Of a stretch of DNA of 64,000 nt, positions 8,480 through 50,800 are shown in pieces (within the stretch, counting starts at the first letter, position 1; each line of letters begins with the position of its first letter). Made by a program: the position numbers and the translations under genes. The stretch is taken from assembly GCA_043228905.1 (NCBI GenBank), contig JBHGNT010000003.1:8432001-8496000 (forward strand). The letters run 5' to 3'. The notes under the pieces were generated by a model. The model was not told where the DNA came from. It saw only the letters and a list, made by a program, of their open reading frames with translations, and did not search any database. This stretch comes from Azolla caroliniana. Lineage: Eukaryota; Plantae; Polypodiophyta.

Positions 8480-10210
8480 CCTAACTCTATATGCTGTTTA
8501 TCGAGTTTTAGTATAAATAGGGTTTTGGAGACCAATTGGATACTTTGTATGTTTGAACTCTCCTCCTAAGGGATTAACTTCAAAGAAGAAGTGAAATCCC
8601 TTGACCTCCTATTGAGCTTGCCAGCGAGCTGGGAGGTTTTCTACACGACATTTGCCAACAACTATCCAAATTTCAATTTGGATGAGACAATCAGACAAGT
8701 CCTCACTGAGGATGTTAGGTGAAAATCCATAGGGCTCACCATCAACGAGTCGGTAGAAGCCCACCACTTGACCGAGTCGATCGACAGATTCAGTCGGTTG
8801 AGAGAACAAGCCCATAGAACAGATCGGAACACCAATTGGTCAAAAACGAGGGGAGATTGATAACGGTCGAACTCAAGAATGAGTTGATTAGGTGAATTCT
8901 GCACCCACTGCAGAAAAGCCGGTCACAACATTTCCGACTGTTGGTCAATCAAGAGGAAAGAGAGAGGTCGGCGATCCGACTCGAACCACTCTCCCGTCGA
9001 CAACCAAGGCAATGTTGCTGACACCCGATCGGGAGAAATCCTCTCCTTAGAGGACTCAATGATCGGAGAAATCCTCTATAGTGTGCAAGACGCACATACG
9101 TGGTTGCTGGATTTCGGTGCTACATTCCACGTTGTCGTGCCTTTCGGCTCCGGATCGTTTGCGTGAGTCGGGTGGGAACCATTGGGGTTTTGGACTAGGA
9201 AGAGGAGAGTTTTAAGGCTAATAAGAATATAAATATGTTGTAAGAAAGAGTTATAGCAAACTCGTGAATCCCATGAGTGTATTGTATTAGATTAATCAAT
9301 ATGAATATAAGAATATAAACTTCGGTTGAAAGAGAATGATATAGAATTCTCGTGAATCCCACGAGTATAGTTTATTAATTGGTGTTTTTTAGAAACATAT
9401 CTAGTTTCCAAATATTTTTCACACACAATTACATTGTGCTCCCCATCCTTATGTAGTGATGAGGAAGTCTTAGTAATCCATGCTTTTTCTCTAACTATAG
9501 ACCCCATGCTTTTCCTATAGATAGACTATATGCTTTATCTAAAGTGATCATGCTTTTTTCTAACTTGTGCGTTTTTTATCATGCACGCTAGATGTGTATG
9601 TGTAGCTTTTTCTTTTGTTATGCGTTTTTCTAATGTTTATCCTAGCGTGAATTTACCTTTCTACGTGGGACATCTATGCTTTAACACTAATGAAATGCTA
9701 GTGTAATGGTAAGACATTACATTATTAACATGGAGGTGCAAGGTTTGAATCTTGCCCTATGCATGTTCCATTTATTTTGCTATTTTCTTCTATTTCTTCA
9801 TTTTTTATTGAATCTAATACTATATACGTTTTTCACGTAGTGTACAAAATACACTACGACACTCGCCCCCTCCAAACCCGCACATCCTCCGGTATGTGCC
9901 GAAGTTGTTGGTGTTTGTTAGTCTCCTCCGTCCGGTCTCTACCCGATTGGTTTCGTTGCCGGCTCGTAGTACCCTCGACTTCTCTTGTTATGTTGACTTT
10001 GTCTCTCCATTTGGAGCACATCCATTCTTTCCACCCGAACCATTGTCGACATCCGATCCACCATAGTCTTCGTTCGCTTTTTGCATGGCCCGCTTGGTCC
10101 TTGTCATCCGCGGTAGTATCTTTTCTTGCCCTCTTTCTTTTCTTCATCAATCTCGACTTCTTTTCGGATTTTCGGTTTAGTCGGATTAGCTTACTTCCGA
10201 TTCGGTCTCG

Positions 10211-11884
10211 TCAGATCGTCTTTCGTTTAGTTCGGCTTCCTTTCCGATTTGTATTCGGTCGATCCGGACTCGGTTGATCGGTTTTTACCGATTCAGTGCT
10301 CTTTCGGGTCGGTTTCTTTTCTTTTCTTTTCGTCCGGATTTGCTTTCTTTTCTTCGTTTTCACCTGCCTTGTCCGGTTCGACTTTCGGCACTTCTTTCCG
10401 TTGTTCGCCACGTAGGTCCTCCGATATGTGCTCGTTGTTCGGTCCTCGTGTGGTTGTAATGCATGCTTCTTTTCTCGCCGTAGCGCGTGCTTCATTATTC
10501 GCCATAACACGCGTTTCTTTATTCGCCGTAGAGCGTGCTCTGTATTACGCGCTTCTCCCGTCGTAGACCCGACCTCCGCATTGTCGCACTTTCTTTTAGA
10601 TTGGAATTTCGGATGGATCATTTTCCATCCGAACCGACTTCCGACTTTACCTTCCTCGCCGCCATCTCCCGTCTCTCCGGTCTCACATTGGTTCTCGGAC
10701 ACAACCGCCGAAGTCTCTAGATATTGTTGGCATGAATCCTCGGTATTACCTTCTTTCGTAGTTTCACCCTTAGCATTCTTCTCGGCTATCTCTTCATCGT
10801 ATTCGTCGGCTTCGACATTCGTTTTCTCTCCGCCACCTTCCGTCTCTTCGGTCTCACGTTGCCTTTCGATCGCAACCGCCGGAGTCTCTGGAATCAATGG
10901 TGGGGAAGTCTCGATATGGCAATCCGCCATTGATTCGTCCATAGCCACCTCCGATTCGATTTCGTCTTTTGTGGCTACCTCCTTAATCACATCCGCTTCA
11001 CACTCTTTATCTGCATCAATTATGCAAACATCTATTATGCTTACCCCTTTTTGACCCGATGTCTCGAGCACTTGTATCCCGAAATTTCCTTCTACACTTG
11101 AATTATCGGCCTTATCCTTCGCCATCGTTCTTTCACAAGACGAGTGGGTGTCTTGTTCCACTCTTTCTCCCGTGGTACCATCATGTTGTATTTCGGCCTT
11201 CATATTGGCTTCATCGTTTTTCCTCAATCGACCATCCTTCATGGGCCATGTCGTTGTTGACGAGATTCTCAGCTTCCTTTCATCATGTCTTCGGCATACC
11301 CTTTCGACTTTAGCCCAATCCTCGGTAAGGCCGTTCGCACCGTCATCATCTTCGAGTTCGATCCCAATGTCCATCCTTTCTTTCGGATCGATCGATCTTA
11401 CGAACATTAAGACTTTATCTCCTCCCACCAATCTTCGTTCCCGCTCCGAGAGTCGAGCAAAACGATGCTCGAACTCTAGGAACGCTTGCGTTGCACTTCG
11501 GTGAGTCTTCTCCGACGCCACCCATTCGTCGAATTCTCGTCGATCTCGTCCCGTCCATCTCTCATAGTCATATGCCTCCCGTAAAGCTTCTTCAAAGGAC
11601 TCCCATGTCGAGTTTTGTTCTTGTATCTTGTGGATTCTCTCTTGTAGTTCGTCCGAGGCCACCCGACTAAAGGATATCACTTGCAATCCTTCCGGTATCC
11701 GATATTGCATCATCTCCGCCTTATATTCACGTAGGTAGCGTGACACACCCTTACCGTTGAATTCCCCGTTTCGTCGCAGAAGCCGCTCTACTGCCGCCTT
11801 CATCTCCGACATCGCACGTTGTTCTTGTTGCATCCGCTCAAACATTATCATCATCATGTTCATCGCCTCTTGTTGATTCTCCAT
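10211..11884 (-). CDS. Intact ORF of element A: gag N-terminal domain fused to acidic then basic low-complexity tail
   Basis: N-terminus FNGKGVSRYLREY..FSRVA..WESFEEAL..KVLMFVRSID aligns with the gags of B and C. No stops over ~557 codons. Confidence 0.8.
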   Translation of the reverse strand: MENQQEAMNMMMIMFERMQQEQRAMSEMKAAVERLLRRNGEFNGKGVSRYLREYKAEMMQYRIPEGLQVISFSRVASDELQERIHKIQEQNSTWESFEEALREAYDYERWTGRDRREFDEWVASEKTHRSATQAFLEFEHRFARLSERERRLVGGDKVLMFVRSIDPKERMDIGIELEDDDGANGLTEDWAKVERVCRRHDERKLRISSTTTWPMKDGRLRKNDEANMKAEIQHDGTTGERVEQDTHSSCERTMAKDKADNSSVEGNFGIQVLETSGQKGVSIIDVCIIDADKECEADVIKEVATKDEIESEVAMDESMADCHIETSPPLIPETPAVAIERQRETEETEGGGEKTNVEADEYDEEIAEKNAKGETTKEGNTEDSCQQYLETSAVVSENQCETGETGDGGEEGKVGSRFGWKMIHPKFQSKRKCDNAEVGSTTGEARNTEHALRRIKKRVLWRIMKHALRREKKHALQPHEDRTTSTYRRTYVANNGKKCRKSNRTRQVKTKKRKQIRTKRKEKKPTRKSTESVKTDQPSPDRPNTNRKGSRTKRKTI

Positions 11885-12480
11885 CTCCTTGCCACCCGCC
11901 TTCACGTCGGGTTCACCAACTGTGTCGTGCCTTTCCGCTCCGGATCGTTTGCGTGAGTCGGGTGGGAACCATTGGGGTTTTGGACTAGGAAGAGGAGAGT
12001 TTTAAGGCTAATAAGAATATAAATATGTTGTAAGAAAGAGTTATAGCAAACTCGTGAATCCCACGAGTGTATTGTATTAGATTAATCAATATGAATATAA
12101 GAATATAAACTTCGGTTGAAAGAGAATGATATAGAATTCTCGTGAATCCCACGAGTATAGTTTATTAATTGGTGTTTTTTAGAAACATATCTAGTTTCCA
12201 AATATTTTTCACACACAATTACATTGTGCTCCCCATCCTTATGTAGTGATGAGGAAGTCTTAGTAATCCATGCTTTTTCTCTAACTATAGACCCCATGCT
12301 TTTCCTATAGATAGACTATATGCTTTATCTAAAGTGATCATGCTTTTTTCTAACTTGTGCGTTTTTTATCATGCACGCTAGATGTGTATGTGTAGCTTTT
12401 TCTTTTGTTATGCGTTTTTCTAATGTTTATCCTAGCGTGAATTTACCTTTCTACGTGGGACATCTATGCTTTAACACTAA

Positions 12481-12553
12481 TGAAATGCTAGTGTAATGGT
12501 AAGACATTACATTATTAACATGGAGGTGCAAGGTTCGAATCTTGCCCTATGCA
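12481..12553 (+). ncRNA. tRNA-like / Pol III A+B box module in element A LTR (second copy at 9691-9763)
   Basis: A box TAGTGTAATGG with D-stem GTGT/ACAT; T arm GCAAG-GTTCGAAT-CTTGC; downstream TTTT. The acceptor stem is poor, so this is not a canonical tRNA. Confidence 0.6.
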
Positions 12554-14684
12554 TGTTCCATTTATTTTGCTATTTTCTTCTATTTCTTCATTTTTTATTG
12601 AATCTAATACTATATACGTTTTTCACGTAGTGTACAAAATACACTACGACAACGTGACCCCTAACATCGAATGGTTTTCGAACTATTCGGCTGGCGCCAG
12701 CGGCACAGTCCGACTAGGCAATGGGCAGGAATGCAAAATCGCCGGAGTAGGCGAAGTACCAATTCAATTATCGAATGGCAACACAATTGTCCTATACCAA
12801 GTTCGGCATGCACGTGCACTAAAAAGGAGTATGGTCTCCATTAGCATGTTAGCCGAAGACGGGTTCAAAATGACTCTTAGTGAGTCGACATGAATGATCA
12901 CGAGGGAACCTAAAGATCGGAAATGGACACAAGTACAATAACTTGTATCCACTGATGGCAATCAATCCAGAAGGGGGCGTGGATGTAGCCAAAACGACTG
13001 ACCCGAACTTATGGCATGGCCGACTCGGCCATATGTCTCAAGCCGGACTAGACCGACGAATGGTGGTCGGCTACGTCCTGAAACTCCTGGCGAAGATTAA
13101 CTTCTATGAGCATTGTCACAACGGGAAATAGAACCGAAGTCCGCACTTTCTCCACTACGAGACGGTACAACAACCCCTAGAGCCCGTCCACACAGAAATA
13201 TGTGCGCATATGCCTGAGAGATCCCTAGGTGGCTCCCAGTACTTCATCACATTCGTAAATGATTGTACACGGAAAGTCTGGGCCTATTCGATTAGGTCGA
13301 AAGATGAAGCGCTCGAGGTCTTCACTCGGTGGATAGCTGAAGTGGAGAACTAGTTGGGACACAGAGTGAAGACACTCCAATCTGACAATGGAGGAGAATA
13401 CACCTCCCGAGCCTTCAAATAGTACCTATCCGACAAAGGGATCCGGCATCAAAAGATCGTTCCATACACACCCATGCAGAATGGAGTGGTAGAACAGATC
13501 AACCGAACGATCCAAGAGAGGGTGACGACAATGCTCCAACAAACCAGGCTGAAGCTGGAGTTCTGTGCTGAAGCATTGGAGACGGCAATATACCTGATAA
13601 ATCTATCACCGTCGAAAGCAATCAGGTTTGAAGTGCCATAGGCACTATGGTCATGCAAACACCCGACCTACGATAGGCTCCGTATATTCGGATGCGAAGC
13701 CTACACATTCATCCCCTGGGAGAAAAGAACCAAGTTGGCACCCCATGCAACAAAATGCCTATTTCTCGATTATGGAATCGTTGGGGAATTCGGCCACCAA
13801 CTATGGGACCCAGAGAACCGGAACTGATCCGGAGTAGTGATGTAATCTTCAATGAAGAATCTATTCTCTCTGAGAGGAACCCGCAGAAAATAGTTGGTAA
13901 AAAGGTATCCTTCAAAGTTGATGAAGATAAGGACCAACCCACCGGGCTGAATCAGAGATTCGACAAACAGTCGAACTCGACCAAGCCGACAACACACTAG
14001 CCGACTCCGAATCGTCAAAAATTGGATTCGACAAAGAGATTGGCAAACCAAGGCAAAACATACACACCCACAAAGGCTAAAGCGAAAACCCAAACCGAGT
14101 TGGCTAAGTCTCCTATCTCCAAGTCAATCAATCCCGAAGCAGTAGAGGATGACGTGACATCGCCGACCTCCTATTACAGGGACGAGTCATCTAACAGGAC
14201 TCCTGACATAAGTGGTTCAACAAATTCCAATCGAAGGATACAGACCGATCAATACAACACTCGGGAGATCTAGACGAGTTCGGAGGTCGATGGAGTTCTA
14301 TCAATCGGGCCTCGACTACATCAACTACACCGATGCAGGCGAACCAAGCACATATGAAGAAGCCATAGTCACACCAGATGCTGACACATGGATACAAGCC
14401 ATGAAATCCAAGATGGACTTGATTCATCAGAATCAGACATGGGAGCTGGTTGAACGACCAACTGGAAGGAAGTTGCTACCCTGCCAATAGGTCTTCAGGT
14501 ACAAATATGTATCTGATTTAGAAAAGCCCAAATACAAAGCTCGGCTCATCGCGAAAGGATTCAAACAAGAACATGGGGTCGATTATGACAAGATATTCGC
14601 ACTAGTAGTCAAGATGACCACCCTTCGGTTCCTACTTGGGGTCGTGGCAACAAAAGCCCTAGAGCTCGAGCAAGTGGACGTAAA

Positions 14685-26023: not shown

Positions 26024-26029
26024 GTTGTG

Positions 26030-28114: not shown

Positions 28115-28180
<66 letters not shown>

Positions 28181-28336
28181 CATAGATAAAAGATAGAGAC
28201 AATGTATGATTCAAGAAAGAAGATTGAGACAAAGTATGATTCTAGAAACAAGAGTATATGATATAAACATGATGTATATTAAAAACATAATATTTTACCA
28301 ACTTTACAATCCTTGATCGTAAGATGAATCTTTTCA

Positions 28337-28405
28337 ATACCGACCCTTGATTTGAACCCACGACTTCCACTTTGAAACGCGAGGCTCTTCACCGAATAAG
28401 ATATC
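28337..28405 (-). ncRNA. Further tRNA-like module in C LTR, sense orientation (copy at 47968-48037)
   Basis: D arm TCTT-ATTCGGTG-AAGA and B box GGGTTCAAATC at tRNA-like spacing. Confidence 0.5.
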
Positions 28406-28873: not shown

Positions 28874-29031
28874 AAATATTATTAAATACAACATTTAAGT
28901 TCATTTTTATATCGTGAAGCACATTCTTCACGACACCCACCCCCTCTGAACTTGCACATTGGTTGTGCAGAGTTCATCCAACACTTCTTCCGATTCTTTT
29001 AGTTCTTCTACTTCTTCATAAAATTCGGGCT

Positions 29032-31112: not shown

Positions 31113-31374
31113 TATGTGCATGAGGTCAATACCTCGTTTGACATATTAATAATATGTGATGAGTGTTGTATGCGTACGAGGTTAATACCTCAATTACGTA
31201 TTACGTTCACGAACATATGTTACGTTTGCGTATGAGTTTAATACCTTGATTTGTTGTAAACAATATGCGGTTGGTCTCGTATGCGTAAGAGGTCAATACC
31301 TCAATTGCGTATTACGATGATCTCTTATTTGTGGATGTTTCGTGTGCGTATAGGTATATACCTCGATTACGTAT
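31113..31374 (+). repeat. Array of 5 palindromic repeats with non-identical spacers in the leader of E
   Basis: Consensus TGCGTAnGAGGTYAATACCTCRATT; cores at ~31122, 31178, 31234, 31289, 31351; period ~55-62 bp. Confidence 0.8.
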
Positions 31375-33923: not shown

Positions 33924-36900
33924 TGTCGTGAAGAAAACCGTCCCCTGGCGCAATTGGTGAATAGCGCACATGAACCGGCCCTTCACGTGTGCGTGCTCTT
34001 AATGTATATAATAGAGAATTAGGTACAGAGAGAGATCCGGGGTAGTTAGATTCGGTAGGTAGGAAGTAAATGAGGGGAGACAGCTCCCTTCTTGACGCTA
34101 TAAAGGAGAGGCAGACGCAGGGAGAAGGGGATCGCACATTGAGGAGGACGAAGTGCTGTCGGACCGGAACCGAACGCTTCTCCTCTGTCTGTTCTCTGTT
34201 ACTCTTCTCTGTAGGTTTCGGGAGGCTCACATTGCTTCGAGGAACGCCCGTGTGCTTCCGGCAACACCTCCATCCTATCCCCATTTTGTGCGCAGACGAA
34301 CAGGCGTCGACATCTGTTCGCCGGCCTGTTCGGTTGTAGCTGTCGCGTGCTCTGCTGTGTACTTGTTATTCGTTAATATACAAACACTTGTCTCTCCCTG
34401 TCTCTGTGTCCATTCGCGTCTTCTGTGTTGACGGGCCACGCCCCTGTGTTTCTTTGCTCATACGTGACCGGGCGTCTCTCTCCTTCTCTTTCCCCTTCTA
34501 TCACCTGCTCTTCGGTTCAGGACCCCGGTGGTCCCGCCTTGTTTCTCCACGCACGCGCGTAACAACACGACATATTTGGTGAACCCGACGTGAAACAGGC
34601 GGCAGAGGAGCAGAAGATGAGGGGGTCGGATCTTGCAGAGGCCATGGCTTCGGCCGTGGACCGGATAGTGAGCGCGCGCGAGGGCACCGGCGCCCTTGAC
34701 AGGGCTATTGAGGCGATCGTTGGTACGATCGGCCGGTTCAGTGGAAAGGATGCCACAAGTTATTTGGCGTCCTACCGGGCGGAGATGTTGATGAGGGATA
34801 TTCCGGAAGAGAGGCGTCTTACCGGATTCCCTCGAGTGGCGATGCCGGGCATCCATGCGGAGGTGCTCGAGGTCCGGGCGGAGAGCCGGACCTGGGAAGA
34901 GTTCGAAGGACGGATCCTAGAGAAATACGGGCTGGATGACGCGCTTCGACTTTCGAAGTGGAGCTTCATGGAGTGGGTGGAGTCCCCCAACAAAGGAAGA
35001 AATGTGTCGGTACTCCTCTGGGAGTTTGAGGAACGCTTTGCGCGCCTTTCGGCGCTCGATCGAACTGTTCTGGACACAAGTCGTGTCCTACTGTTTGTCA
35101 AATCCGTTGACACACGGGATCGGGGGCAAGTTGGCTCCTTACTAGAAACCGAAGACGGGCTGACGACCGACTGGGCCGCGGTAAAGAAAGTCTGCGGCCG
35201 TTTTGACAAACGGTGGGAGTGGGCTGATACAGAGGCGACCGAGGCGGGACCTATCGCAACAAGGAAGCTCGAACCGATACCGCAGGCACGAAGGGAAGAG
35301 ACCCGGGAGTGGCTCGAAACTGGTTCGTCTTTGACCGGCGTGACCAGAGGTTCGTCCGGGAGAACAGCTCTGGAGGAGTTGACACGAGCGGTAAAGGATC
35401 TCTAGATCGCCCAAGCTTGGAGGGAAGGCGGCGATCAGGCTCGTGACCGACGGCCTTTGGCAGGAAGTAGGTGCATGTGGTGCGACAAGGTCGGCCACAT
35501 TCGGAAAGACTGCGGGGACTTTATGGAGGCTTTGAGAAGCCGAGTAGTGTACCTGTGGGAGGGTCAGGTGCACGCCAGCGATACCCGGAGGGCCCTGAAC
35601 CGAAACGACGGGAGAGGAGGAATGAAAAGGCTGATGGAAGAGGCGGCAGCCCGGCACGCCGAGACCATCCACTACTCAGCGTCAGGCGGTATTCGGGTCG
35701 GGGGCAGCGGGGCCCGGAAGGAGAGCAAAACCGAGTTCTGGCCGACGGTGCTGGAAGGCCTTGCTGGTGCCCGGCTGAAGAGAGACGAGGCGGACCGCGC
35801 GGAGAAGCGGGTCCAGGAGGTAACGGGGTGGAGTGACCCGGTCGAAGAAAAGACGGGTTTCGTCGAAGCAGCTTGCCAGAACTACGAGGCTCTGGTTGAA
35901 GACAAACGGGTAGGTAAAAACGGAGGGGCCGGACCCTCACAGAGATACGAAACCCGATTCGAGCCGAAACGGAACGAGGTCGGTGAGTCCAGTGCCCGAG
36001 ATAACCACAAGAAGGGCGGATACCGGTTGGGCACGGAGATCGAAAGGACCACGAACCTATGAAAGGTCCTAGAAGAATGAATCCTCGACAGCAAGGTGGA
36101 ACTGTCGTTGCGAGAGGTGCTCGGGATAGCCAAGAAGGAGTTCCACGACTCCATCGTGGACTTGGTGAAGAGGAAGAGGCTGTCGACGGAGGTAGAACCG
36201 GACAGGCCGGTGGAAGTGCGGACGACGCACATAGAGGACATGGCGCTGGAAGACGAGTGGGCGGAGAGCCACTATTCGAGGCCACACTGGGCCCGAGCGA
36301 CCACGGAAACCCCGGTGAAAATCGGAGATGTTCAGGAACCGGTGGTGGCACTGGTGGACCACGGTTCGGAAATAAACCTGATGTCCATGGACTTCTACAA
36401 AAAGGGGAAATGGCCGATCAACACTAAGCACGGGTGGAAGATACAGGCGGCGACGCGCGCCACCGAGGAACTACACGGGGCCTGCCCAAACGTAGGAGTC
36501 AAGATCGGCGACGTCGAAATAGACCAGCACTTCTTTGTGCAGGAAACGTCCTCGCACCCGGTCATTCTAGGGGAACCGTACATTACGGCGGCGTGAATGG
36601 AGACCAATGTGCTGGACAAGGGGTCGGCTTACGCGAGGGTTAAGAGCCAGGACGGGCGTCATTCGGTCCAGTTCTTGACGGTACGACCCAACCACGAGCG
36701 AAACCGCGAGTCCCTCGGTGCCGAGAACCGAGAGGATTTTTAGAGAGGGCTGCTGAGGCGTGGGGCCGCGACAGTCCCGACACTCCGGGAAAACCCCACA
36801 AATGTACGATAAAAGCAAAATTGAAGAATCCTTGTACCATAAGTAGGAAGTTTTGTTTCTCCGACAACGGAGGGTGTACGATAGTCGGCGTCGTAGGCCG

Positions 36901-39900
36901 AGAAAAGACAAGGGCGAAAGAGCGACTTCGGGCGTGCGGAGTTCTCGGGCCCAGCGAGGAAATCAATGGAGCCGTGGAGGCGGTCTCCTTCGACGATACC
37001 TTGGGAATACTGCGAGAGGTGGTCGGAGAGGGCCTTAAAGAGGACCAGACGATACCAGTTTGTTCAGAAGAGATGTATGAAGTCATGGCGGACTTCAGTT
37101 GAGGGCTCGAGTCGGATCGGACGGCCCGGGTTAACACGAAGTACAAGACTGTGGACCGGAAGGTAAGGCCAGTCGCGGCACCCTTACCGGAGGGCAGCGA
37201 GTTGCGAATCGAGGGGGTCGCGTCGGACCCCAGTTTACGTGATCCGGCCTGCATAGGACACACCTTCACCGATAGAACGCTACGGGAGCTCAAAATCAGT
37301 GGGGGCGGGTTCCTACTGCCGGCGGAAGAAGACCGGTTTCGGAGAATGCTCGGAAGGCACGAGAAAGCCTTCGCATTCTCGCCGGAAGAAATCGGGTGCG
37401 TAGACCCGACAGTCGTGAAGCCGATGGTGATATTCACGGTACCGCATGTACCATGGAATCTCAAGCCAATTTCGGTAACGAGAGCTCACATCCCGGAGCT
37501 GATGGAGCTATTGAGGCAGAAAGTCAATATGGGCATCCTCGAACCGTCGAGTGCCCCGTACTCGAACTGGTGGTTTACTGTACCGAAGAAGAACGGGACG
37601 TTGCGCTTCATTCAAGACCTGCAGCCGGTCAACAGAGTGACCATTCGGAACGCAGGAATCGGACCAACGATAGACGAGTTCGCGGAGGCCTTCGCCGGAA
37701 GGTCGATCTACTTGATTGGTGATCTGTACTCGGGGTACGATCAGTTCCAACTAGCCGCAGAGAGCAGAGACATTACGACGATGCGGACTCCTCTCGGCCT
37801 AGTGCGGATGTGCACCCTGCCGCAAGGAGGGACGAACTCGGTGGCCCACATGGTGAATGCGATGAACAAAGTGCTAAGGGATTGTATCCCGGACATCACC
37901 ATGCCATTCTTGGACGACATCCCGGTCAAGGGATGTCCGGTGGAGGAAAAGGACGAAACGATCGGACCGGACGGATGCCGGAAATTCGTGACGACACACA
38001 TTGACGACTGCGAGAGGGTGTTGCACAGACTAGAGGACGCGAGGCTCACCTTCTCCGGGGAGAAATCGGCCTTCGGGCAATCGGAGATCATGGTCGTCGG
38101 ACATCTATGTGGGGCGTATGGCCGGAAACCGTCTCCGGCCAAGGTAGAAGCCATCTCCGCTATGAAGCCCGACTGTAACTCGGTCACGGAGGTACGGAGG
38201 TTCTTGGGAGCATGCGCGTTCTACCACATATGGATCCCGCATTACGCCCACATTGCCGAGCTGCTATACGGGTTGCTGAAAAAGGGGCAAAAATTCGAGT
38301 GGCGAGTCGAGCATACGGAGGCAGTTCGAAAAATGAAGGAGGCTCTTGCTGCAGCTCCGGTGCTCCGGAAGGCTGTCTACGAGAAAGGCAACCCCGTCTA
38401 CATAACGGTAGATACTAGTCCGACCGGGATCGGTTGGGTCGTCAACCAAGAAGATGAGGACGGTATTCGGTTCCCAATCCGGTTCGGCGCGAAGGTCCTC
38501 AGTGAGTGACAGCGAGGATACGCCCAGGTTAAACGCGAACTCTGGGGTATCGTTTCGGCGGTAAAGGCCGATAAAGACTATCTGATCGGGACAGAGGTAA
38601 TTATCGAGACGGACTGCCTGCCGATCCTCGCCATGGTTTCCAGATGCGCAACCCCGGACCTGGCAATGCTCAGGTGGATAGCGTACATCAAGTCCCTGGA
38701 TCCGGAAATACGACATATTTCCGGGAAGGACAATGACATGGCCGACATGCTTTCAAGGGCGCGATTTGATGACGAGGGCGGCATGGTTTCGGAGGACGAG
38801 GAAGTCGGCGTAGACTTCTTCGAGGCGGCTTACGCAACAATCGAGGGGGAAAGCACTCCGGTGCTTAACGATTTCGACGAGACCAAGTACGACGAGGAGT
38901 GGCTGCAGATTGGGGGATTCTTAAGGACAATGGTGCCGGACGCATCGTGGACCAGGGACGAGGCCAATCGGATCCAGAAGAAAGCGTACCGATTCTTTCT
39001 CCGGGACGGATACTTGTGGAAGCACCCGAAGAAGAGGAACGGCATCCCGCCCCGAGTAGTGGCGACGAAGGAGGAACAGGAGGAATTACTGAAGGCCTAC
39101 CACGACAACCCCTGGGCTGGGCACCGTGGGACGTGGGCCACGTTCGAGAAGCTAAAGGGGAAGTACTGGTGGCCGGGACTGTACTGGGACGTGCATCGGT
39201 TCGTGACAACTTGTGAGAGTTGTCAGATGCACTCCATAATCCGACATCGGGACGAGCTTCACCCAACTTACCCTCCGGCCATCCACTTCAAATGGATGGT
39301 AGATTTGGTGACGATGCCGATGGGCGTAGGGCAGATGTTATATCTGGTGCTGGCCCGGGAGGATCTGACAAACCAGGTGGAAGGCCGAGCCTTGCAGAAC
39401 AAAACGACCGCGGCCGTGTGTCGGTTCCTGATCGAGGACGTGATATGCCGGTACGGATGCGTTGGAAAGATCGTGGCTGACCGCGGGGAGTTGGACGCCG
39501 AAGAGGCCGAGGAGCTGTTCAACCGGTTAGGGGTCAAGCTCTCGCTCACCACAACGTACAATCCAGAGGCAAACGGGAAGGTAGAGCGCAAGCACGGGCT
39601 AATCGTCAAAGCACTAGTCCGGGCGTGCGAAGGACAGGTCGGGAACTGGCCACGACTGTTACCCTATGCCTTGTGGGCGGACCGGACAACGCACAGTTCG
39701 GTAACCGGGTTCATGCCGTCGGAACTCATGTTCGGACAGAAGCCGATCATGACGATGGAACGGACGATCTCCTCCTGGGCGACAGTAGACTGGAGTGACG
39801 AAATAAGTCGGGAAGAACTGCTAGCTGCGCGTATACGGCAGCTCGAGCGGAGGCCAGGGGACGTGGAACGAGCGGCGGAGAGACTTCGGGCGGCGAGGAT

Positions 39901-40954
39901 GAAGAACAAAGCCCGGTTCGACCGGACGCACCGGCTCCGACCAAAGAAAATTGAGGAAGGCGACTGGGTGCTAGTCTACGACAGCAGCCTCGACAACCAA
40001 CACCGAGCAACACGGAAGTTCGCGAAGCGGTGGTTCGGGCCTTACGTGGTAACGAGAGCCAACGACAACGGGACGTATCACTTGGCGGAACTCGACGGTA
40101 CGAGGATGGCGACACCAGTGGCGGGAAAGCGGATCAAAGCGTTCAAGAAGCGCCATGACGGCGAACCGGACCTACGAGGCCTGGACAGTGAAGACGAACA
40201 GTCCGAAACGGAGGGCGAACCGATGGACGGAACCCCGACCGGTTTTCTCCAACCAGAAACTAATTTTGGTGCATACTGGTGGATGTGCGGTTAGGTGGGG
40301 GCGGATGTCGTGAAGAAAACCGTCCCCTGGCGCAATCGGTGAATAGCGCACATGAACCGGCCCTTCACGTGTGAGCACTCTTAATGTATATAATAGAGAA
40401 TTAGGTACAGAGAGAGATCCGGGGTAGTTAGATTCGGTAGGTAGGAAGTAAATGAGGGGAGACAGCTCCCTTCTTGACGCTATAAAGGAGCGGCAGACGC
40501 AGGGAGAAGGGGATCGCGCATTGAGGAGGACGAAGTGCTGTCGGACCGGAACCAAACGCTTCTCCTCTGTCTGTTCTCTGTTACTCTTCTCTGCAGGTTT
40601 CGGGAGGCTCGCGTTGCTTCGAGGAACGCCCGTGTGCTTCCGGCAACACCTCCATCCTATCCCCATTTTGTGCGCAGACGAACAGGCGTCGACATCTGTT
40701 CGCCGGCCTGTTCGGTTGTAGCTGTCGCGTGCTCTGCTGTGTACTTGTTATTCGTTAATATACAAACACTTGTCTCTCCCTGTCTCTGTGTCCATTCGTG
40801 TCTTCTGTGTTGACGGGCCACGCCCCTGTGTTTCTTTGCTCATACGTGACCGGGTGTCTCTCTCCTTCTCTTTCCCCTTCTATCACCTGCTCTTCGGTTC
40901 AGGACCCCGGTGGTCCCGCCTTGTTTCTCCACGCACGCGCGTAACAATGCGACA
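33924..40954 (+). mobile_element. Element B: full-length gypsy of the tRNA-Trp/Phygy-like lineage; LTRs 33924-34572 and 40306-40954
   Basis: 649-bp LTRs (~14 differences); TSD ACGC; PBS TGGTGAACCCGACGTGA at 34577; PPT AGGTGGGGGCGGA. Gag-PR 34617-36743 and pol to 40294 (FLDD, VDTSP, ADRGE, WFGPY) with a few in-frame stops. Confidence 0.95.
36734..36799 (+). promoter_or_regulatory. Putative -1 ribosomal frameshift signal and pseudoknot (homologue in C at 45414-45476, minus strand)
   Basis: G_GAT_TTT-TAG ends gag-PR, and the pol frame is -1 in both B and C. Downstream stem GGGCTG/CAGTCC with loop GTGGGG pairing CCCCAC. Confidence 0.7.
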
Positions 40955-43900
40955 ACGCATTTTATTCAATGTGTAAAAAAACAATCCCTCTCAATTGTTT
41001 CCTCGTGTCCATCAATATCCGAGTTGTCTTGTTCTACGTTATTTTATTGTGTACTTGATTCGGACATTCACGTTTACAATATCGATAATGTCCCGGTTCA
41101 ATTAACATATTTTGAACAACAACAACTTGATGAAATCTTAAATGATTTTCATTATGTTTTTCCAAGTGAACTACCTGATGGGTTACCTCCTAAACGAAAT
41201 ATAGACCATCGTATAGATATTGAACCTGGTGTTGCACCAATAAGTATACCTCCGTATCGCTTAAGTCGATCCGAAGAAGATGTGGTATCTAAGCAACTCA
41301 AGGACTATTTACGAATGGGTTATATACGTTATAGTAAATCTCCATGGGGTTCACCAGTTCTCTTGGTTAAAAAGAAAGAGGGCACATGGCATATGTGTAT
41401 TAATTACTGACGCTTGAATAAACTGACGATCAAGAATTCGTACCCATTGCCCCGGGCTGACGATCTAATTGACCGTCTCCAAGGAGCTCGGTATTTTACG
41501 AAACTTGATCTCTGTACTGGCTACCATCAAATACGAATAAGTGAGGACGATGTTCCTAAAACGGCATTTCGTACGCGCTATGGCCATTACGAGTTTTTGG
41601 TTATGCCTTTTGGTTTGACCAATGCTCCGGCTACTTTTCAACAAGAAATGAATGACATTTTCCGAGAACAACTTGGAAAATTTGTCGTTATTTTCTTGGA
41701 TGATATTTTAGTTTATAGCCGTACATTACAAGAACATGCTAGACATGTCCGCTTTGTTTTACAAACATTGCGTGACAAACAGTTTTATGCAAAGATCTCA
41801 AAATGTGAGTTCTTCAAGAAATCAATTACTTATCTAGGACATCTCATAACCGAACGAGGAGTTGAAATTGATCCTTCTCGCATTGAGAAAATCAAGCTTT
41901 GGCCCACTCTTCGGAATATTCGAGAAGTTCGATCATTCCTTGGTTTTGTCGGGTTTTTGCGAAAGTCTCTTCGTAATTACTCCCAATTGACGACGCCGTT
42001 TACTGATCTTTTAAAAGGTCAAACGCGTAAGTCTACAAAACCTATTGTGTGGAATGCTACACTAGAGCTCGCCTTTAAGGAACTCAAGGACTTGGTTTGC
42101 AAGGCTCCTTCACTTCTTTTACCTGATCCTTCAAAACCTTTTGAGGTTGAAACCGATGCAAGCGATTATGCTATAGGTGCTGTCTTGTATCAAGATGGTA
42201 AACCAATAGCATTCGAGAGTAAGAAACTTGATTCTGCTCAATGTCGGTATACCGTTCAAGAAAAGGAATTATTTGCAGTTATACATGCGCTCAAAACATG
42301 GCGCCATTATCTTTATGGAAATCGCTTTGTGGTAACTACGGACCACGAGTCCTTGAAATATTTTTGTGACCAACAAAACCTGAAAGGTCATAAGGTACGA
42401 TGGGCTGATCTCATCCAGGACTTTGATTTTTCCATACGATATCATAAAGGTTCCATGAACACTGTCGCTGATGCAGTAAGTCGCATCCGTGAAGTTAACA
42501 TGCTTAGCTTCACTGAAATAACATCAGATCTTTATGATCACCTTCGAGGAAAGTATCCTGATGACAGTTATTTTGCAAAATACTGGGCAAGAGTTGAGTC
42601 TAGAACAGACACCACCACATCCTCGAAGGAATACTTCCACATTGCTAACGGTTTGCTCTACCGTAATGGGAAGGTTTGTGTTCCAGATTTACCCGAGGTA
42701 AAAAAGAGGATTCTTTTTGAATGCCATGATGCACCCTCAACAGGGCACCCTGGAATACATCATACACTCGTTCTCATCTCCACTCAATTTTATTGGCCTA
42801 AGATGCGTCCTGACATACATAGCTATGTGACTAAATGTCACCAGTGTCAAGTTAACAAAGCCAAGCGACTTAAAGCCGCCGCAGGACTTTTACATACCTT
42901 GGACATCCCCAATAATAAGTGGGAAAGTATATCCATGGATTTTATTGTTAGCCTTCCTTGCACCCAAAAAGGTCATGATGCCATCTGGGTTGTCGTTGAT
43001 CGACTAACTAAAATGGCCAGATTTATTGCTACTAAAACCATGGTAACAGCTCCTGAATTGGCTTACCAATTCGTTGACGAATTGTTTCGTTTTTATGGGT
43101 TACCGATGGATATCGTGAGTGATCGAGATCCAAAGTTTACTAGTGACTTCTGGATGCAAGTCTTTAAGAAGTTAGAAACTACGTTGAGCATGAGCTCCAC
43201 GGATCATCCTCAATCCGATGGACAGACAGAACGAGTAAATCAAATTATTGAGGACAGGCTTCGAGCATACGTTGGTGCAAAACCAACAAAATGGGAACGT
43301 TATCTCCCAATTTTGGAGTTTGCTTATAACAGTTCCAAGCATACGTCAATGGGATATAGTCCTTTTATGTTGATGTATGGTTTTCAGGCATGAGCCCCGA
43401 TTGATGTTAATATACATCATGATGAGTTGCGAAGTACGCAAATCTTTCTTCGGGATATGCAAGATATGTTGCATATTGCATGAGATAATATAAAAACAGC
43501 TCAAGATAGAGCGCGTTTTTATGCCGATCATCATAGGCAACCTCGTGTATTCAACCCTGGACAGAAGGTATTTTTACGTGTACCTCACAATTCTAAGACA
43601 TTGTCTACGGGTAAGTGCGCTAAGTTAGCCCCACGGTTTTGTGGACCTTTTACAGTCCTCAACCGCATTGGGTCATCAGCCTATCGTCTTGCTCTTCCCG
43701 ATGGTGTTGGAATTTATCCAGTCTTCCATGTGAGTCGTCTAAAAGAACTTCTAGGTTCGGGCGACAATACAGTTACAACTGAAACTCTGGTTACTTCTGA
43801 AGAATTATCTTCTAAACCACATGTACCAGAAAGAATTCTCGATGTTAAAACAAAAAAATTACGTACTAAAGAAATCCGAGAATTTAAAATAAAATGGATG

Positions 43901-45466
43901 GATAAATCAATAAAAGATGCCACATGGGAACGCGAAAATACTCTTAGAACTAATTTCCCTAACTTTCCATTGCAAGTGTGCAATGTTTTAAAGAGGGGGA
44001 GTATGTTACGGGCATGACCATTTAATATCCCGTGGTGAGAATTTACCGTAGTATTCTATACACATGGATAAGTATGAGGGTTAAACGAGAGTGTAAAGAA
44101 GGGGAGGATTACTTTTAATCCTCGGGATTGAGACAACCCATTAGGTTAAGTGTGAACTTGCCTAAGGGCCTTGGGTATCGCTATAAATAAGAGGCCTAGC
44201 TACCCTCATTTGATGATCTTTTTGACTACATCAAGACTCTGCTCTTGTGGCGGGTCAACTCTTGTAGTGAGCGCGCCAGCACCAGGTATGACTCGACGCC
44301 ACGACGGTGGTATGGAACGCCGATCGAGGCTCGAGTCCGTCTCGATCCCTTCGCTCGGGGGTGGTCGGGTGGATCGGCACCCTTCTTTCTCTTTCTCCTT
44401 TCTATCTATCATTTGTTTATCCTTATCTTAAGCTTACTTTAGTACTTAGATCTCTAATACTATAGGTGTCTTGATAGAAGTTATATCTCGATTTTTGATA
44501 GCAAGTTGAAATTGATCATACCCGGAATAAAGGTCTGCCACTGAATATATAGCTCTTCCTGCAAACATCTCAACAAACTCATCCACAATTGGCCCTACTC
44601 CCGAGTTTTGGATTGTTACCTTATTCACGGGTTGCATATCTTGGATAAATCGGAATCGACCATCTTTCTTTAACACAGTGAACCATCGACTCGAGTAAGG
44701 AGCGTTTGATGGTTCCAAGATACCCATCCTTATCTTTTCTTTTAGAAGTTCTAATAGTTGAGGGATTCTAGCCCTAGGCATGGGTATTGGCTTAAAGTTC
44801 CATGGAATATGAGGAATAGTGAATATAACCATGGGCTCTACAATTTCTGGATCCACACACCCAATTTCCTCAGGTTGGAATGCGAACGCCTTTCCATGCC
44901 TTTTTAACATCTCCCTGAATTGCTTTTCTTCAGAAGGTAATAGGAAGTCACCCCCTCCTATTTTCATCCCTTGTATTGTTTCCGAAGTAAACACATGTCC
45001 CACCTTTCGTGGGTCTCTAATCATTGGCTCTGTGGCTGCTTCTTTGATTGCTTTTTCACCCTTGGAAGTGGAGCAGCAATAGGAAGAACCTTCTTCTCCA
45101 CAGTCTTGTACTTTATTAGTACATGTGCTTCATGATCCTTTCGAGCAACTTCTTCAATGACCTCGTACATCTTGATTGAATGGACAGGAACTTGGATTTC
45201 ATTGTCTTCTTCCATTGCTTCCAAATGAGTTATTGTATCTTCAAAACTTAATTCTTCAAACATATCTTGAATTTCTTCATCACCATCTATTAATCCAGAA
45301 CACTTAAAGTACTCGAAAGCATTTTGTATTTTATTATTATTTACTTTTAGTATAAAAGTAGCACCATTAGATGAGATTGTACAAGGAATATCTTTATTTA
45401 CATTATTATTCATGGGGTTTTCTTTTATGTTCAGGCTATCACAACCCCTACCTGTAAAATCCCTAT

Positions 45467-47581
45467 CTAAAAATCCTGGGAAAACTCTTCATCCATCTCT
45501 TGAATTGGATGTTCCCTCAAGCATTCTTTGTTTCTTTCATGGTTGGGCCTCACAGTTAAGAATTGGACAGTCTTTCTTCCATCTTGACTCTTGATTCTCG
45601 CGAAAGCCGAACCATCATCAATAACCTTTGTTTCCATCCTCACTACGGTGATGTAGGGCTGACCAAGGATGATGGGGTAGGTTGATCGATCTTGCACAAA
45701 GAAATTTTGATTCACTGACACATCACCAATTGTTACCTTCACACTAGGACATGCTCCATATAGATCCTTCGTAGTCTCTGTGGCGGCTCTTATTTTCCAC
45801 CCATGATTCTTGTCGATCGGCCACCGTCCTCGAGCGTAAAATTCCGATGACATCATGTTAATTTCGGATCCACGATCGATCAAAGCAATACATGGAAGTT
45901 GTTGCTCCCCAATTTTTGCAGGTGCCTCCGTTGTTGCTCGAGCCCAATGGTCCCTTGTATAGTGACTCCTATCCCCTTCATGGACGCCGACATCATTCTG
46001 GTTTTTTACACTTGCAGCATTGATGGTGCCACCATACAAATCTTGGAGTGCTGTTGCACACCCTCCTGTAATTTCCTCCGTCACCTGTGTCTTCCTTCTA
46101 ATAATATCTATGATAACTTCATGAAATTCTTTCTTTGCTATACCCAACACTTCTCTTAAAGTAATTTCTACCTTACTATTTAGTATTCTTGTTTCTAGTA
46201 CCTTTTTTATATCCGTCGTCGTTTCTATGTCTGAGGCAAGCTTGAAAGATGGGCATGTCTTTCCTTTTACTTTATCAGCTTCCTTCGGCTCAGTAGCACC
46301 CTTTTCCATCTCCCTTCTCTTCTGTTCTCGTGTCTCATGTCTCTTTGTCGGATCAGCTTCCTCAGCTCTCTTCCGCTTCTCTTCCACTACCACATCTTGT
46401 GCATTCACTTGGGCGAATGCTGATAGTGCGTCTACTAGATCATTCCATCCAGTGAAGTTTTGTATTTCATCTCCCGCTCTTTTTAATTCATCCACTCGAA
46501 CCTTCCCTTTTCTTGCATAATCCATCACATCTTGCCAAAATCCAGATCCATCATATGCGTCTTCTACGCGCAACCCTAAGGTTGCCACGGATTGTATCGC
46601 TTGAGTCGTTTCTCTCTCGGCATCTTCCATTAGCTTTTTCATTCCTCCTCGCCCGAAGTTGAGTTGAAGTGGTTGTTGAGTCTCTGTTGAGTGAATCTTG
46701 CCCTCTTGATAGTAGATTTTATTATGATTAAGAGCATCCCTATCCTCTTGACAATCTTTCTTCTGGTGGTCAATACTATCACACCACACACACCTTCGGA
46801 CCATTCCACCTCCCTGCCTTGATGAAATCGAGCTTTGTCCCGATTCTAGTTTCGTCACTTTGATCGACAAGTCTTTCATGCCTTTCACCAATTCGTGTAA
46901 GAGTGATTCTTCTACTTTCTTCTCTCCCGACTCGTTCCCTGTTTCTTCATCATTTCTGTCGGGCAACTTCATAAACCATAACTTTCTTTTGTAGAAATGG
47001 GCGCACGTCCTTTTTACCTCCTCCCAGTCTTCGATAAGTCCACTTGGACTATTCTGATCTTCTAAAAGCATTCCCAAGTCCTTCCTGTCTTTAATATTAG
47101 TAGCTTGTAGAAGCAATATGACTTTATTTGGCACTATTATATTTCTATCTCTAACATTTAGTTGCTCAAATCTTTCAGAAAACTCTTTTAATACTTCCAA
47201 AACACTTAAATGTTTATCAGACTCTACCCAATCCATCAAAGCTTTCCTTGTCATCCTTGACATATCGTTGAGGTTGTATTCATTCAATAATGCTCTTTCG
47301 AAAGTCACCCATGTATGATGCTCTCTCTGTAGCTCCTGGACCCTTTCTTGTAGCCCAATCGCAACGACTCGACTAAAGCTATTAATTTTTGCAGCTTCGT
47401 CGACACTGCATTTAAGCATTTCTTCAATATAAATCTTCAAAAATCTTGTTAAATTTATACCTTCGAAGATTCCTACTCGTGCGAGAATATTGTTGACGGC
47501 TTTGTCGATGCTTGCCATCATCCCTTGTTCCCGCATCACTCGTTCCATCATCGTACACATAAGCCTCATTTGCTCCTCCAT
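45467..47581 (-). CDS. Gag-protease ORF of element C
   Basis: 704 aa open; CVWCDSIDHQKKDC knuckle; protease ALIDRGSEIN..ILGQPY; ends SQDF-stop at GGATTTTTAG. Confidence 0.85.
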   Translation of the reverse strand: MEEQMRLMCTMMERVMREQGMMASIDKAVNNILARVGIFEGINLTRFLKIYIEEMLKCSVDEAAKINSFSRVVAIGLQERVQELQREHHTWVTFERALLNEYNLNDMSRMTRKALMDWVESDKHLSVLEVLKEFSERFEQLNVRDRNIIVPNKVILLLQATNIKDRKDLGMLLEDQNSPSGLIEDWEEVKRTCAHFYKRKLWFMKLPDRNDEETGNESGEKKVEESLLHELVKGMKDLSIKVTKLESGQSSISSRQGGGMVRRCVWCDSIDHQKKDCQEDRDALNHNKIYYQEGKIHSTETQQPLQLNFGRGGMKKLMEDAERETTQAIQSVATLGLRVEDAYDGSGFWQDVMDYARKGKVRVDELKRAGDEIQNFTGWNDLVDALSAFAQVNAQDVVVEEKRKRAEEADPTKRHETREQKRREMEKGATEPKEADKVKGKTCPSFKLASDIETTTDIKKVLETRILNSKVEITLREVLGIAKKEFHEVIIDIIRRKTQVTEEITGGCATALQDLYGGTINAASVKNQNDVGVHEGDRSHYTRDHWARATTEAPAKIGEQQLPCIALIDRGSEINMMSSEFYARGRWPIDKNHGWKIRAATETTKDLYGACPSVKVTIGDVSVNQNFFVQDRSTYPIILGQPYITVVRMETKVIDDGSAFARIKSQDGRKTVQFLTVRPNHERNKECLREHPIQEMDEEFSQDF

Positions 47582-47758
47582 TTGTCCTCGTCGCCGCCTT
47601 CACGTCGGGTTCACCAAATGTGTTGGAGTAGTTGTGGTTTGTGCGGCAAAGTCGCGAGGACTAAGGTTAAGGGGACTTCAAGAAACTTAACTTTTAATAA
47701 GGCTTGTATGGTGATGATAGAATGGTTAAGGATAGTAAGACGAAGAGTTACGAGTAAT

Positions 47759-47808
<50 letters not shown>

Positions 47809-50800
47809 CGAGCATAGATAAAAGATAGAGACAATGTATGATTCAAGAAAGAAGATTGAGACAAAGTATGATTCTAGAAACAAGAGTATATGATATAAAC
47901 ATGATGTATATTAAAAATATAATATTTTACCAACTTTACAATCCTTGATCGTAAGATGAATATTTTCAATACCGACCCTTGATTTGAACCCACGACTTCC
48001 ACTTTGAAACGCGAGGCTCTTCATCAAATAAGATATCTTCAACAGTTGCTTAGATTCCTTTTTCTCCCACTTTCTCTTGATTGATTTCTTGTTTTCCTTG
48101 CCCCTCTTTATATAGGTGTTGCCATGCATATGGTAATGTATTATGGGAGCATGGCATGCATGCAATGCATGAGTTACATCTAATGCATGATCGCCATTTG
48201 GCGCACATGTATTGCACGTGATGCATGGTAGCCATCATGCTCACTTGAGCTCCCATGTATGAAAATAGATATGGGATAAGTATAATGATAAAAATGCATT
48301 CTACAATAACTAACCTAGCTTAGTGGTGTATACTTTGTGTTTGGCATACAAGGTTGAGAGTTCAAGTCTCTCAATTTTACTTAATACAATATATAGCTTC
48401 ATTCTTATATCGTGAAGCACATTCTTCACGACAGCGGTATGTTGAAACCAATTTGAAACCCCAAATATTTGGTGCTTGCTCCTTGGTTGATCCATTTGAA
48501 AGCGGGATGTGGATGCCACGCAGGATGAGTTTCATGAGAAAGCCATATTGCACATGATTTGTGCCAATTGTCATAGCATTGGATCTCTTGCAAAATACGG
48601 CTAACCCACTTTCGAGCTTTTGTAGGGTTTCCAAGTCCCCTTGCAGGTAGACCGCTGTGTCATCTGCAAATTCTATATCCAGGATGCTTTGATGAGAATG
48701 AAGCACGACAAGACCATGTAGGTTGAGATGTTGTGAGTTGAGAAAGCAAGGGAGTGCTTCGGCGTATAATAGAAATAATGATGGAGCTAGTGGGCATCCC
48801 TGTCGTACAGATCGGGATATTTGGAAAAAAGGGCCCCTTTCACCTGCCAATGAAACGCAACTACTGCCGTTCCTATAAAGTCCTGCAATGCCTTTGATCC
48901 ATGTCTCTTGAAATCCGAGTTTCCCCAACACACTTTCAAGAAAATTTCAGCAAACCCTATCATATGTTTTCTCAAAATCTAGTAGCACCACCACTACCTT
49001 GTTGTTGGTACGTTTGGCAAGGGCTACTACTTCCCAGAATGAGAAGAGGTTGTCTAGGATGCTCCGATTTCTAACAAAACCTGTCTGGGATGGATGAATG
49101 AGTTGAGGGAGAAGAGATGTTAACCGGTGTGCCATGATTTTTGCGAGCAACTTATAAACAGTATTGAGAAGAGTTATGGGCCGCCACTTACTAATGTCGT
49201 TGGCACTGCCACCACTTTTAGGAATGAGATGTATCATCCCTTGTCCAAATTCCTCCGGCATGTTTCCAAACGTGATGATCTCCTCATATGCCTGGAGGAG
49301 GTCTTCTTTAATAGTGCCCCAAAGGCATGTGAAAAAGTGAGGAGTGAGGCCGTCGATTCCGGGGAAACTATCTACATCCAAATCAGAGAGGGCTTCCCAT
49401 ATCTTGATGGTTGATAGGGGACGCACGAGCCATGCATTCATTTCCATCGTGACTTTCTTGGGTATGCTTTGGAGGATAATATCTTCTTTTATGTCTTCCC
49501 CTGTGGCCATAGTATCTTCAGTAAGTAGGTGCTTATAGTAACCTGTGGCAATATTCCTCATTTCATCGCCATCCTCAATGGTCGTTCCATCCGCTCGGTT
49601 GAGGCTGCACATCATTGTTCTAGCGTGCCTCGGGCATTTGGAGCGGAAGAATTCCTTCGTGGTTTTGTCTCCTACTCTAATCCATTGTGCCATGCTTCCA
49701 TGGAACTCCATGTCGTATATTTCCTTTTCCGCCATGCTGAGTTCATGTTTGGCCATGGAAACTTGTCCTGCAGTCTAAGGACATGACGAGTATGTCTGTT
49801 GGAGTCGTTGTAAGGCTATTAGGCCCCGTTTTGTCCTTTGTCGCTTTTCTTGAGCATCCTTGCTTCTGGTCTTGACAAACTCATGTAGGAGAGTTGAAGC
49901 TCTTGTTAATTTAGCTAGAAGTTTGTCAGATGCTGATGAGACATTGACGGGTAAGGACCATTGGTTGGAGAGTTGTTCCTTCCCCTCTATAACTGTGTAG
50001 ATAATGTGCGGGATGCGAGGTTGGAAAGGGCCCCATTTCAGTGCAATTGGAAATGACCAACTACCGGGTAATGGTCAAAGAAAGTCATGCCTGGAGTTAT
50101 GCGACACCACCCTCCCTTCGCTTCTAGAGCCTCGCCCACATAAATGCGGTCAATGCGAGAAAGGGTGGGTTCACTATTCCGCCCGTCTGATCGGGAGAAT
50201 AAGAGAGAGTCCCTTTTTCGTTGGAAGTTGTCAGAATGCCAGATGTCTCGCAGGTTAAGGTGTACACATAGCTTCTCCCATTGTTTATGTTCCCTTCCTT
50301 GTAGAACTATGGGGTTGTTGTTGGAGCTATCGTGAATGGATTCAATCATATTGAAATCCCCTCCAATGCACCACTCTTCCACACCCGCTACTTGTAGGCG
50401 GATGCGTTCCCAGAATGTTTCCCTTTCTGTTCTGCTATTTGGAGCATAAACATTCATGAAATTCCAACGTTGCCCTTGGATGGCCAACGTGCAAAAATGT
50501 GCCCTACCAGGTATAAGTGATTCCTGGTGTATGAGGCCTTGGGCTAGATGTTCACGAATTAGAGTGCAAATGCCACCATGATTTCCATCCTCCCCTATTG
50601 TTGGCTCCCAAATTGTTCGCCATGATCATGGTAAAAGATCTCCGACTTCCTTTAAAGGAGTACTATCAAGGTGATGTTCTTGCAACATGATGATGTTAGC
50701 ATCACCCCCTAATATATATTCCTCAAGATCTCTTCTCAATTTCCATCTGTGTTGTTGGTCTAGTTGACTCCTGAGCCCTTAAACATTCCATGTTACAATC

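What the first reader, a model, noticed from the sequence alone, without database searches (positions are those of the whole stretch)
9129..48437. All three tRNA-Trp-primed elements have 4-bp TSDs centred on CpG, inside other transposons' coding DNA
Seen: TSDs aCGt (9129/12652), aCGc (33920/40955) and gCGg (27974/48434), each confirmed by restoring the host reading frame (Copia protease, chromovirus protease, LINE RT). D, E and Bianca have 5-bp AT-rich TSDs, and CpG is scarce in these hosts. The integrases of B and C lack a chromodomain. Inference: an integrase with NCGN specificity, possibly recognising methylated CpG, which would steer insertions into silenced TEs. Only three insertions support this.
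Basis: partly seen in the sequence, partly recalled or inferred. Interest (0 to 1): 0.8.

Follow-up and report, generated by a model that had tools for sequence, protein, structure and literature searches.

The report
Phygy-like retrotransposons insert at CpG
Three related plant jumping genes each sit in a four-base duplicated site with CG in the middle, and their relatives do the same, which matches a habit already published for the Phygy group; their integrase likely reads the CG sequence itself, and a role for DNA methylation is untested.

Summary
Elements A (9133-12651), B (33924-40954) and C (27978-48433) have 4-bp duplications ACGT, ACGC and GCGG and one shared 17-nt primer-binding site. 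The CG centre is family-wide: 23 of 29 flank junctions in related contigs have it, 5 more have TG/CA, and public runs show the same at B's LTR end. But it is published. Neumann et al. 2019 list Phygy elements as 4-bp NCGN TSD (186 elements, 100%), tRNA-Trp primer 81%, no extra domain. B meets each tested feature; a tree with Phygy references could not be built. Best reading: a sequence-reading integrase that kinks target DNA at a central CG. Methyl-CpG sensing is neither shown nor excluded. This scan noted NCGN sites before in another, probably fungal, genome.

The parts
9133..12651 (-). Element A: 3,519-bp non-autonomous LTR element, gag-like ORF only (10214-12001), LTRs 9133-9861 and 11923-12651, 99.6% identical
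9129..9132 (+). TSD ACGT of A, left copy
12652..12655 (+). TSD ACGT of A, right copy
11902..11918 (-). Primer-binding site of A (tRNA-Trp type, label recalled), 4 nt from the LTR
9059..12890 (+). Host of A: Copia protease region, interrupted after the WLLDFGATFH motif
33924..40954 (+). Element B: 7,031-bp Ty3/gypsy element, gag-PR-RT-RH-INT with in-frame stops, LTRs 33924-34572 and 40306-40954, 97.8% identical
33920..33923 (+). TSD ACGC of B, left copy; uninterrupted host copies carry it once
40955..40958 (+). TSD ACGC of B, right copy
34577..34593 (+). Primer-binding site of B
39047..40189 (+). Integrase of B: zinc finger, DDE core with D-R-G-E-L motif, SH3-like GPY/F domain, no chromodomain
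30408..44459 (+). Chromovirus, host of B and itself inserted in the RT of C; 5-bp TSD CTATA; chromodomain in 43484-44014
27978..48433 (-). Element C: about 6.4 kb of own DNA, gag-PR 45470-47599, RT split by the chromovirus, about 330 codons of RT/RH missing, INT 29041-30204; LTRs 47621-48433 (5') and 27978-28935 (3')
27974..27977 (+). TSD GCGG of C (CCGC in element sense), left copy
48434..48437 (+). TSD GCGG of C, right copy
47600..47616 (-). Primer-binding site of C
26339..52322 (-). Host of C: LINE (endonuclease, RT, zf-RVT), interrupted near the end of RT

Best explanation
A, B and C are Ty3/gypsy-type retrotransposons of one chromodomain-less lineage, most likely the Phygy clade, that leave 4-bp duplications centred on CG, and their integrase likely selects the CG by reading the DNA sequence itself, with no need for methylation. 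Shown: the duplications, the shared primer site and LTR ends, the family-wide CG centre, the domain layout. Inferred: the intasome cuts with a 4-base stagger and kinks the target at its central step, as foamy-virus integrase does; CG is a flexible pyrimidine-purine step, and lineage-specific residues (a conserved Glu at the position of foamy-virus Ala188, and a conserved S-S-L-D/E-x-Q-H-x-x-x-R-K loop in the C-terminal domain) would narrow the choice to CG. A lacks pol and would be moved in trans by a B- or C-like element. Insertions pile up in other transposons mainly because those hold most of the DNA and most CpGs, and because insertions there are tolerated. TG/CA-centred sites are likely old CG sites that decayed by methyl-C deamination after insertion.
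For: TSDs, PBS and ends. Related contigs: 23 of 29 flank junctions are NCGN against 4.8% CG in the flanks, p about 1e-25 (23 of 31, p 2e-24, with the two dropped rows kept); 5 of the 6 others are TG/CA, p 3e-4. CG is kept in CG-poor flanks too (3-7 CG per 400 nt at L009, L010, L032, L037, L071). Public runs at B's 3' LTR end: at least 135 of 249 partly laid contigs follow the reference to +3 or +4 and then diverge into varied flanks (39/80, 30/57, 25/44, 41/68). Published Phygy profile matches. Integrase is an ordinary foamy-virus/Ty3-like protein. Position 148 is E or D in 42 of 45 aligned rows and aligns to Ala188; Ala188/Arg329 base contacts, central YR bending and T/A avoidance at the TSD edges are described in PMC4422553 (passages), and here position 4 is never A (0 of 29) and position 1 is T in 2 of 29. 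Sequence-driven CG-rich targets exist elsewhere: ZAM integrase made in bacteria binds a CGCGCG oligonucleotide; Ginger1 makes CCGG/CCGT TSDs. Transposons hold 71% of the window's available CpGs, so 3 of 3 has p about 0.36.
Against: No labelled Phygy sequence could be placed in the tree, so clade membership rests on features. B (7.0 kb) and C (about 7.4 kb with its deletion counted) are below the published Phygy range of 7.7-10 kb. The metagenome junctions are one-sided, and the two ends of L065 disagree (CTGT, ACGT). In one search, 51 rows were hidden, two runs are one sample, and a tolerated mismatch at +1 or +2 cannot be ruled out. The residues named contact bases beside, not at, the centre in foamy virus; their role here is a guess. 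Nothing here separates methylated from unmethylated targets.
Confidence: 0.72

Rival explanations
1. The integrase reads or is strongly helped by 5-methyl-CpG at the target centre, which steers new copies into silenced transposons in place of a chromodomain.
For: Transposon CpGs in this genome look methylated: 7 of 14 LTR differences in B and 9 of 17 in the chromovirus are CpG transitions. 13 of 29 flanks resemble transposon parts of the window, 6 of them the same lineage. Phygy-into-Tcn1 nests were the commonest repeated nests in Physcomitrella (PMC6911290 passages), and Phygy is among families enriched at centromeres of a liverwort (PMC12885004 passages). C methylation created strong retroviral integration sites in vitro (cited in PMC11054761, passage).
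Against: No methyl-reader domain. Nesting is explained by density. CpG is not scarce in two hosts. Decay to TG/CA shows methylation after insertion, not before. ZAM shows CG-rich specificity on synthetic DNA.
Confidence: 0.2
2. The integrase only wants a bendable pyrimidine-purine step (CG, TG or CA), and CG is just the most common outcome.
For: 5 of 29 sites are TG or CA centred; 4-bp retroviral integrases favour central YR steps.
Against: TG plus CA are about three times as common as CG in the flanks (13.7% against 4.8%) yet give 5 sites against 23, and TA gives none. Published Phygy TSDs are listed as NCGN.
Confidence: 0.05
3. The elements belong to TatI (also 4-bp TSD and tRNA-Trp primer) or to an unnamed sister lineage with the same targeting.
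For: TatI shares TSD length and primer type; no Phygy reference was in my tree; sizes are below the Phygy range.
Against: TatI always carries an extra archaeal-type RNase H; none was found in B or in two intact relatives. NCGN is reported for Phygy only.
Confidence: 0.1

Closest known systems
Phygy clade, non-chromovirus Ty3/gypsy (Neumann et al. 2019, PMC6317226; passages, section 9 and supplementary file 5 read)
   Same: 4-bp TSD with NCGN (186 elements, 100% 4 bp), tRNA-Trp primer site (81%), no chromodomain, no extra RNase H, coding region filling the internal part.
   Different: Described from Physcomitrella only, 7.7-10 kb; here 7.0 kb (B), about 6.4 kb with a deletion (C) and a 3.5-kb gag-only element (A), in another plant, with named relatives in Riccia and Adiantum. 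The paper gives no mechanism in the parts read. Its element table and FASTA were too large to read.
TatI (same paper)
   Same: 4-bp TSD, tRNA-Trp primer.
   Different: Has an archaeal-type RNase H (100%); no NCGN noted; no such domain found here.
Ginger1 DNA transposons (PMC2836005, passages)
   Same: Gypsy-like integrase with GPY/F motif; 4-bp TSD centred on CG (CCGG 75%, CCGT/ACGG 24%).
   Different: DNA transposon with inverted repeats, no RT; narrower outer bases than here.
ZAM of Drosophila (PMC2527525, passages)
   Same: LTR element whose integrase binds a CG-rich target directly.
   Different: Errantivirus; longer CGCGCg consensus and a second binding site nearby.
Prototype foamy virus intasome (PMC4422553, passages; PDB hits)
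   Same: 4-bp stagger, central YR step, T/A avoided at the edges, same fold.
   Different: Weak preference only; Ala where this lineage has Glu.

Membership tests
Phygy | RT/RH/INT fall in the Phygy clade of the REXdb tree | not testable with these tools
   Reference FASTA too large to read. My integrase tree groups B and C with Riccia elements (95/93), far from the window's chromovirus, but holds no labelled Phygy.
Phygy | Ty3/gypsy order PR-RT-RH-INT | tested here: met
   B; C partly deleted; A has no pol
Phygy | No chromodomain | tested here: met
   No Chromo hit after the SH3-like domain in B, C, P0246, P0290, while the window's chromovirus gives one; model ends after the SH3-like domain
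Phygy | No archaeal-type RNase H | tested here: met
   No such Pfam hit in B, P0246 or P0290; not testable in C, where the region is deleted
Phygy | 4-bp TSD of form NCGN | tested here: met
   3 of 3 in the window; 23 of 29 related junctions
Phygy | Primer site for tRNA-Trp | tested here: inconclusive
   One 17-nt site in all three and in 121 related loci; the Trp label is recalled, no matching tRNA gene found
TatI | Archaeal-type RNase H in the polyprotein | tested here: not met
Chromovirus | Chromodomain at the integrase C-terminus | tested here: not met
Methyl-CpG-guided integrase (no described family) | Preference for methylated over unmethylated CpG | not testable with these tools
   No methylation data or genome available

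The most novel reading that the evidence does not exclude
Phygy-type integrases read 5-methyl-CpG at the kinked centre of the target, so a chromodomain-less retrotransposon finds silenced transposon DNA through the methyl mark itself, using the conserved Glu of the core and the C-terminal S-S-L-x-x-Q-H...R-K loop. I found no such mechanism for an LTR retrotransposon in searches (listings only).
Probability: 0.2. Interest if true: 0.62.

Novelty: new member of a known kind. Interest (0 to 1): 0.2.

Why it matters
The pattern itself is known, so the finding mainly shows that the Phygy NCGN rule holds in another non-seed-plant-like genome, across several diverged families and a gag-only passenger, and it refines the outer bases (position 4 never A, position 1 rarely T). 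Phygy is the one plant LTR lineage reported with a sequence-specific target, and its mechanism is unstudied in what I read. The conserved residues named here give a direct mutagenesis test. If methylation were read, it would be a second route, beside chromodomains, by which retrotransposons avoid genes.

Tried and rejected
No whole genome is held for the window, so no genome-wide TSD logo. The primer-site pattern found nothing in viral contigs. Searches for a tRNA gene matching the primer site failed (the 3 hits are not tRNAs). The kinase at 3447-4154 is a plant calcium-dependent kinase but did not fix the host group. A first attempt to call LTR starts from terminal inverted repeats alone was too noisy and was replaced by homology to known LTR ends. 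My first LINE translation used the wrong upstream frame and was corrected. A link to yeast Ylt1, recalled, was not supported or denied by what I read. Rows dropped before counts: L008 (same contig as L009), L007 (primer-site remnant) and L053 (purine-tract remnant); 6 window junctions were left out of the 29. Only 80 of 121 loci had full flanks fetched, and about 150 stretches exist. Three homologues with short matches were left out of the tree (P0337, P0028; and none beyond 27 chosen ids were tried). Rejected: nesting as evidence of targeting (p about 0.36, with hand-drawn transposon spans); CpG scarcity; a palindrome beyond the TSD (Phygy shows none, PMC6911290 table).

Full report
Observation. 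A is 9133-12651 on the minus strand, B 33924-40954 on the plus strand, C 27978-48433 on the minus strand. All share the 17-nt primer site four bases from the 5' LTR and a G-rich tract before the 3' LTR. The nest is LINE, then C, then a chromovirus inside C's RT, then B inside the chromovirus just after its protease core; A sits in a Copia protease. Frames on the two sides of each insertion agree with one 4-bp duplication. For B, public contigs join the two flanks over a single ACGC. Three CG centres have a chance of about 5e-5 at local CpG frequency, or 0.015 if any shared dinucleotide is accepted after the fact.

CpG is not scarce next to A and B (observed/expected 0.97 each; 0.60 for C). The Gypsy at 58598-63457 has an even-length duplication in an (AT)n run, not 5 bp; three other elements do have 5-bp AT-rich TSDs. 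None of the three elements is intact: B has in-frame stops, C lacks about 330 codons of RT/RH, A has only a gag-like ORF about 35% identical to the Gag of B and C.

More insertions. A scan of metagenome contigs with the primer-site pattern gave 121 loci of about 150, many 70-88% identical to A, B or C. Using LTR ends defined by the primer site or purine tract, I found 31 other LTR ends in 120 loci; 23 have NCGN beside them. Two are not host flanks; of the 29 left, 23 are CG, 4 TG, 1 CA, 1 CT, against 4.8% CG in the flanks (p about 1e-25). Position 1 is A 14, C 10, G 3, T 2; position 4 is T 13, C 9, G 7, never A. These are one-sided junctions, and L065's ends disagree. Laying four runs on B's 3' junction, at least 135 of 249 partly laid contigs follow the reference to +3 or +4 (through the CG) and then diverge into varied flanks; those that stop at the LTR end mostly read as primer sites; 51 rows were hidden and two runs are one sample.

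What is known. Neumann et al. 2019 (PMC6317226; passages, section 9, supplementary file 5) state that Phygy elements have an insertion preference for NCGN and list 186 elements, 4-bp TSD 100% (NCGN), tRNA-Trp 81%, 7.7-10 kb, no extra domain. A search for NCGN with retrotransposon gave 3 papers, only this one on the subject (listing). PMC6911290 (passages) reports GC-rich centres for 4-bp TSDs and Phygy nested in Tcn1. TatI also has 4-bp TSDs and a Trp primer but carries an extra RNase H, which B and two intact relatives lack. Named relatives of B's Pol are from Riccia and Adiantum; an integrase tree groups B and C with Riccia elements and apart from the chromovirus, with no labelled Phygy in it. 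The paper's element table and FASTA could not be read; they would settle membership and might hold outer-base counts. The Trp label is recalled (searches found no tRNA gene).

Mechanism. B's integrase matches Ty3 and foamy-virus integrases by sequence and fold, with zinc finger, core, a long helix and an SH3-like domain and nothing after it (pLDDT 76.5). In foamy virus the 4-bp target is bent at a central pyrimidine-purine step and Ala188 and Arg329 touch bases (PMC4422553, passages). Here the Ala188 position is Glu or Asp in 42 of 45 rows, and the C-terminal loop has conserved Ser, Leu, Gln, His, Arg, Lys. I infer that these narrow a general YR preference to CG; this is untested. ZAM (PMC2527525, passages) and Ginger1 (PMC2836005, passages) show that Gypsy-type integrases can pick CG-rich targets by sequence.

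Methylation. For: LTR pairs differ mostly at CpG and CHG, so transposons here look methylated; methylation made strong sites for a retroviral integrase in vitro (cited in PMC11054761, passage); 13 of 29 flanks are transposon-like; Phygy is among centromere-enriched families in a liverwort (PMC12885004, passages). Against or neutral: transposons hold 61% of the bases and 71% of the CpGs open to insertion in this window, so 3 of 3 has p about 0.36; decayed TG/CA sites show methylation after insertion only; no reader domain exists. Searches (listings) and passages of a 2025 review (PMC12477314) showed no methyl-CpG-reading LTR integrase. I put this reading at 0.2.

Earlier notes of this scan: e1-10582392 describes NCGN sites in another, probably fungal, genome and pointed me to Ginger1; e1-10618240 files other elements of this genome near Phygy. 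Neither counts as evidence.

Verdict. Real, family-wide and already published as the Phygy signature. New members of a known kind; interest 0.2, with an open and easily tested question about methylation.

Noticed in passing
window:11919-11922, 34573-34576, 47617-47620: Four bases, not the usual two (recalled), separate the LTR from the primer site in all three elements, and four bases follow the G-run before the 3' LTR. The integrase may trim four-base ends.
   Followed up: no
window:58598-63457: 4.86-kb Gypsy with 155-bp LTRs, a different primer site, no chromodomain hit, in an (AT)n run with an even-length duplication; size and a 4-bp TSD would fit Selgy as tabulated.
   Followed up: partly
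window:28681-28737, 48304-48384, 12490-12550: tRNA-like A-box/B-box stretches lie antisense near the 5' end of the LTRs of C (duplicated in its 3' LTR) and A; Rfam tRNA match in C is weak (24.2 bits, E 1.2). Recalls Helenus LTRs (PMC10886601, passages).
   Followed up: partly
window:18381-18590 and 25456-25668: 210-bp inverted repeat, 91% alike, enclosing Copia RT fragments and a 169-bp tandem array.
   Followed up: no
window:14685-16746: 2.06-kb non-coding LTR element with 5-bp TSD GTAAA inside the Copia host.
   Followed up: partly
window:1648-4154: Exons of a plant calcium-dependent protein kinase on the minus strand; CpG observed/expected 0.45 in 1-7900.
   Followed up: partly
L009:186-11295; L076:220 and 1003: L009 holds a tandem three-LTR array with two primer sites; L076 holds two elements of the lineage head to head about 780 bp apart.
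   Followed up: no
window:39590-39592: B's integrase has Lys two residues after the catalytic Glu where 43 of 44 aligned rows have Gly, one more sign that B is decayed.
   Followed up: no
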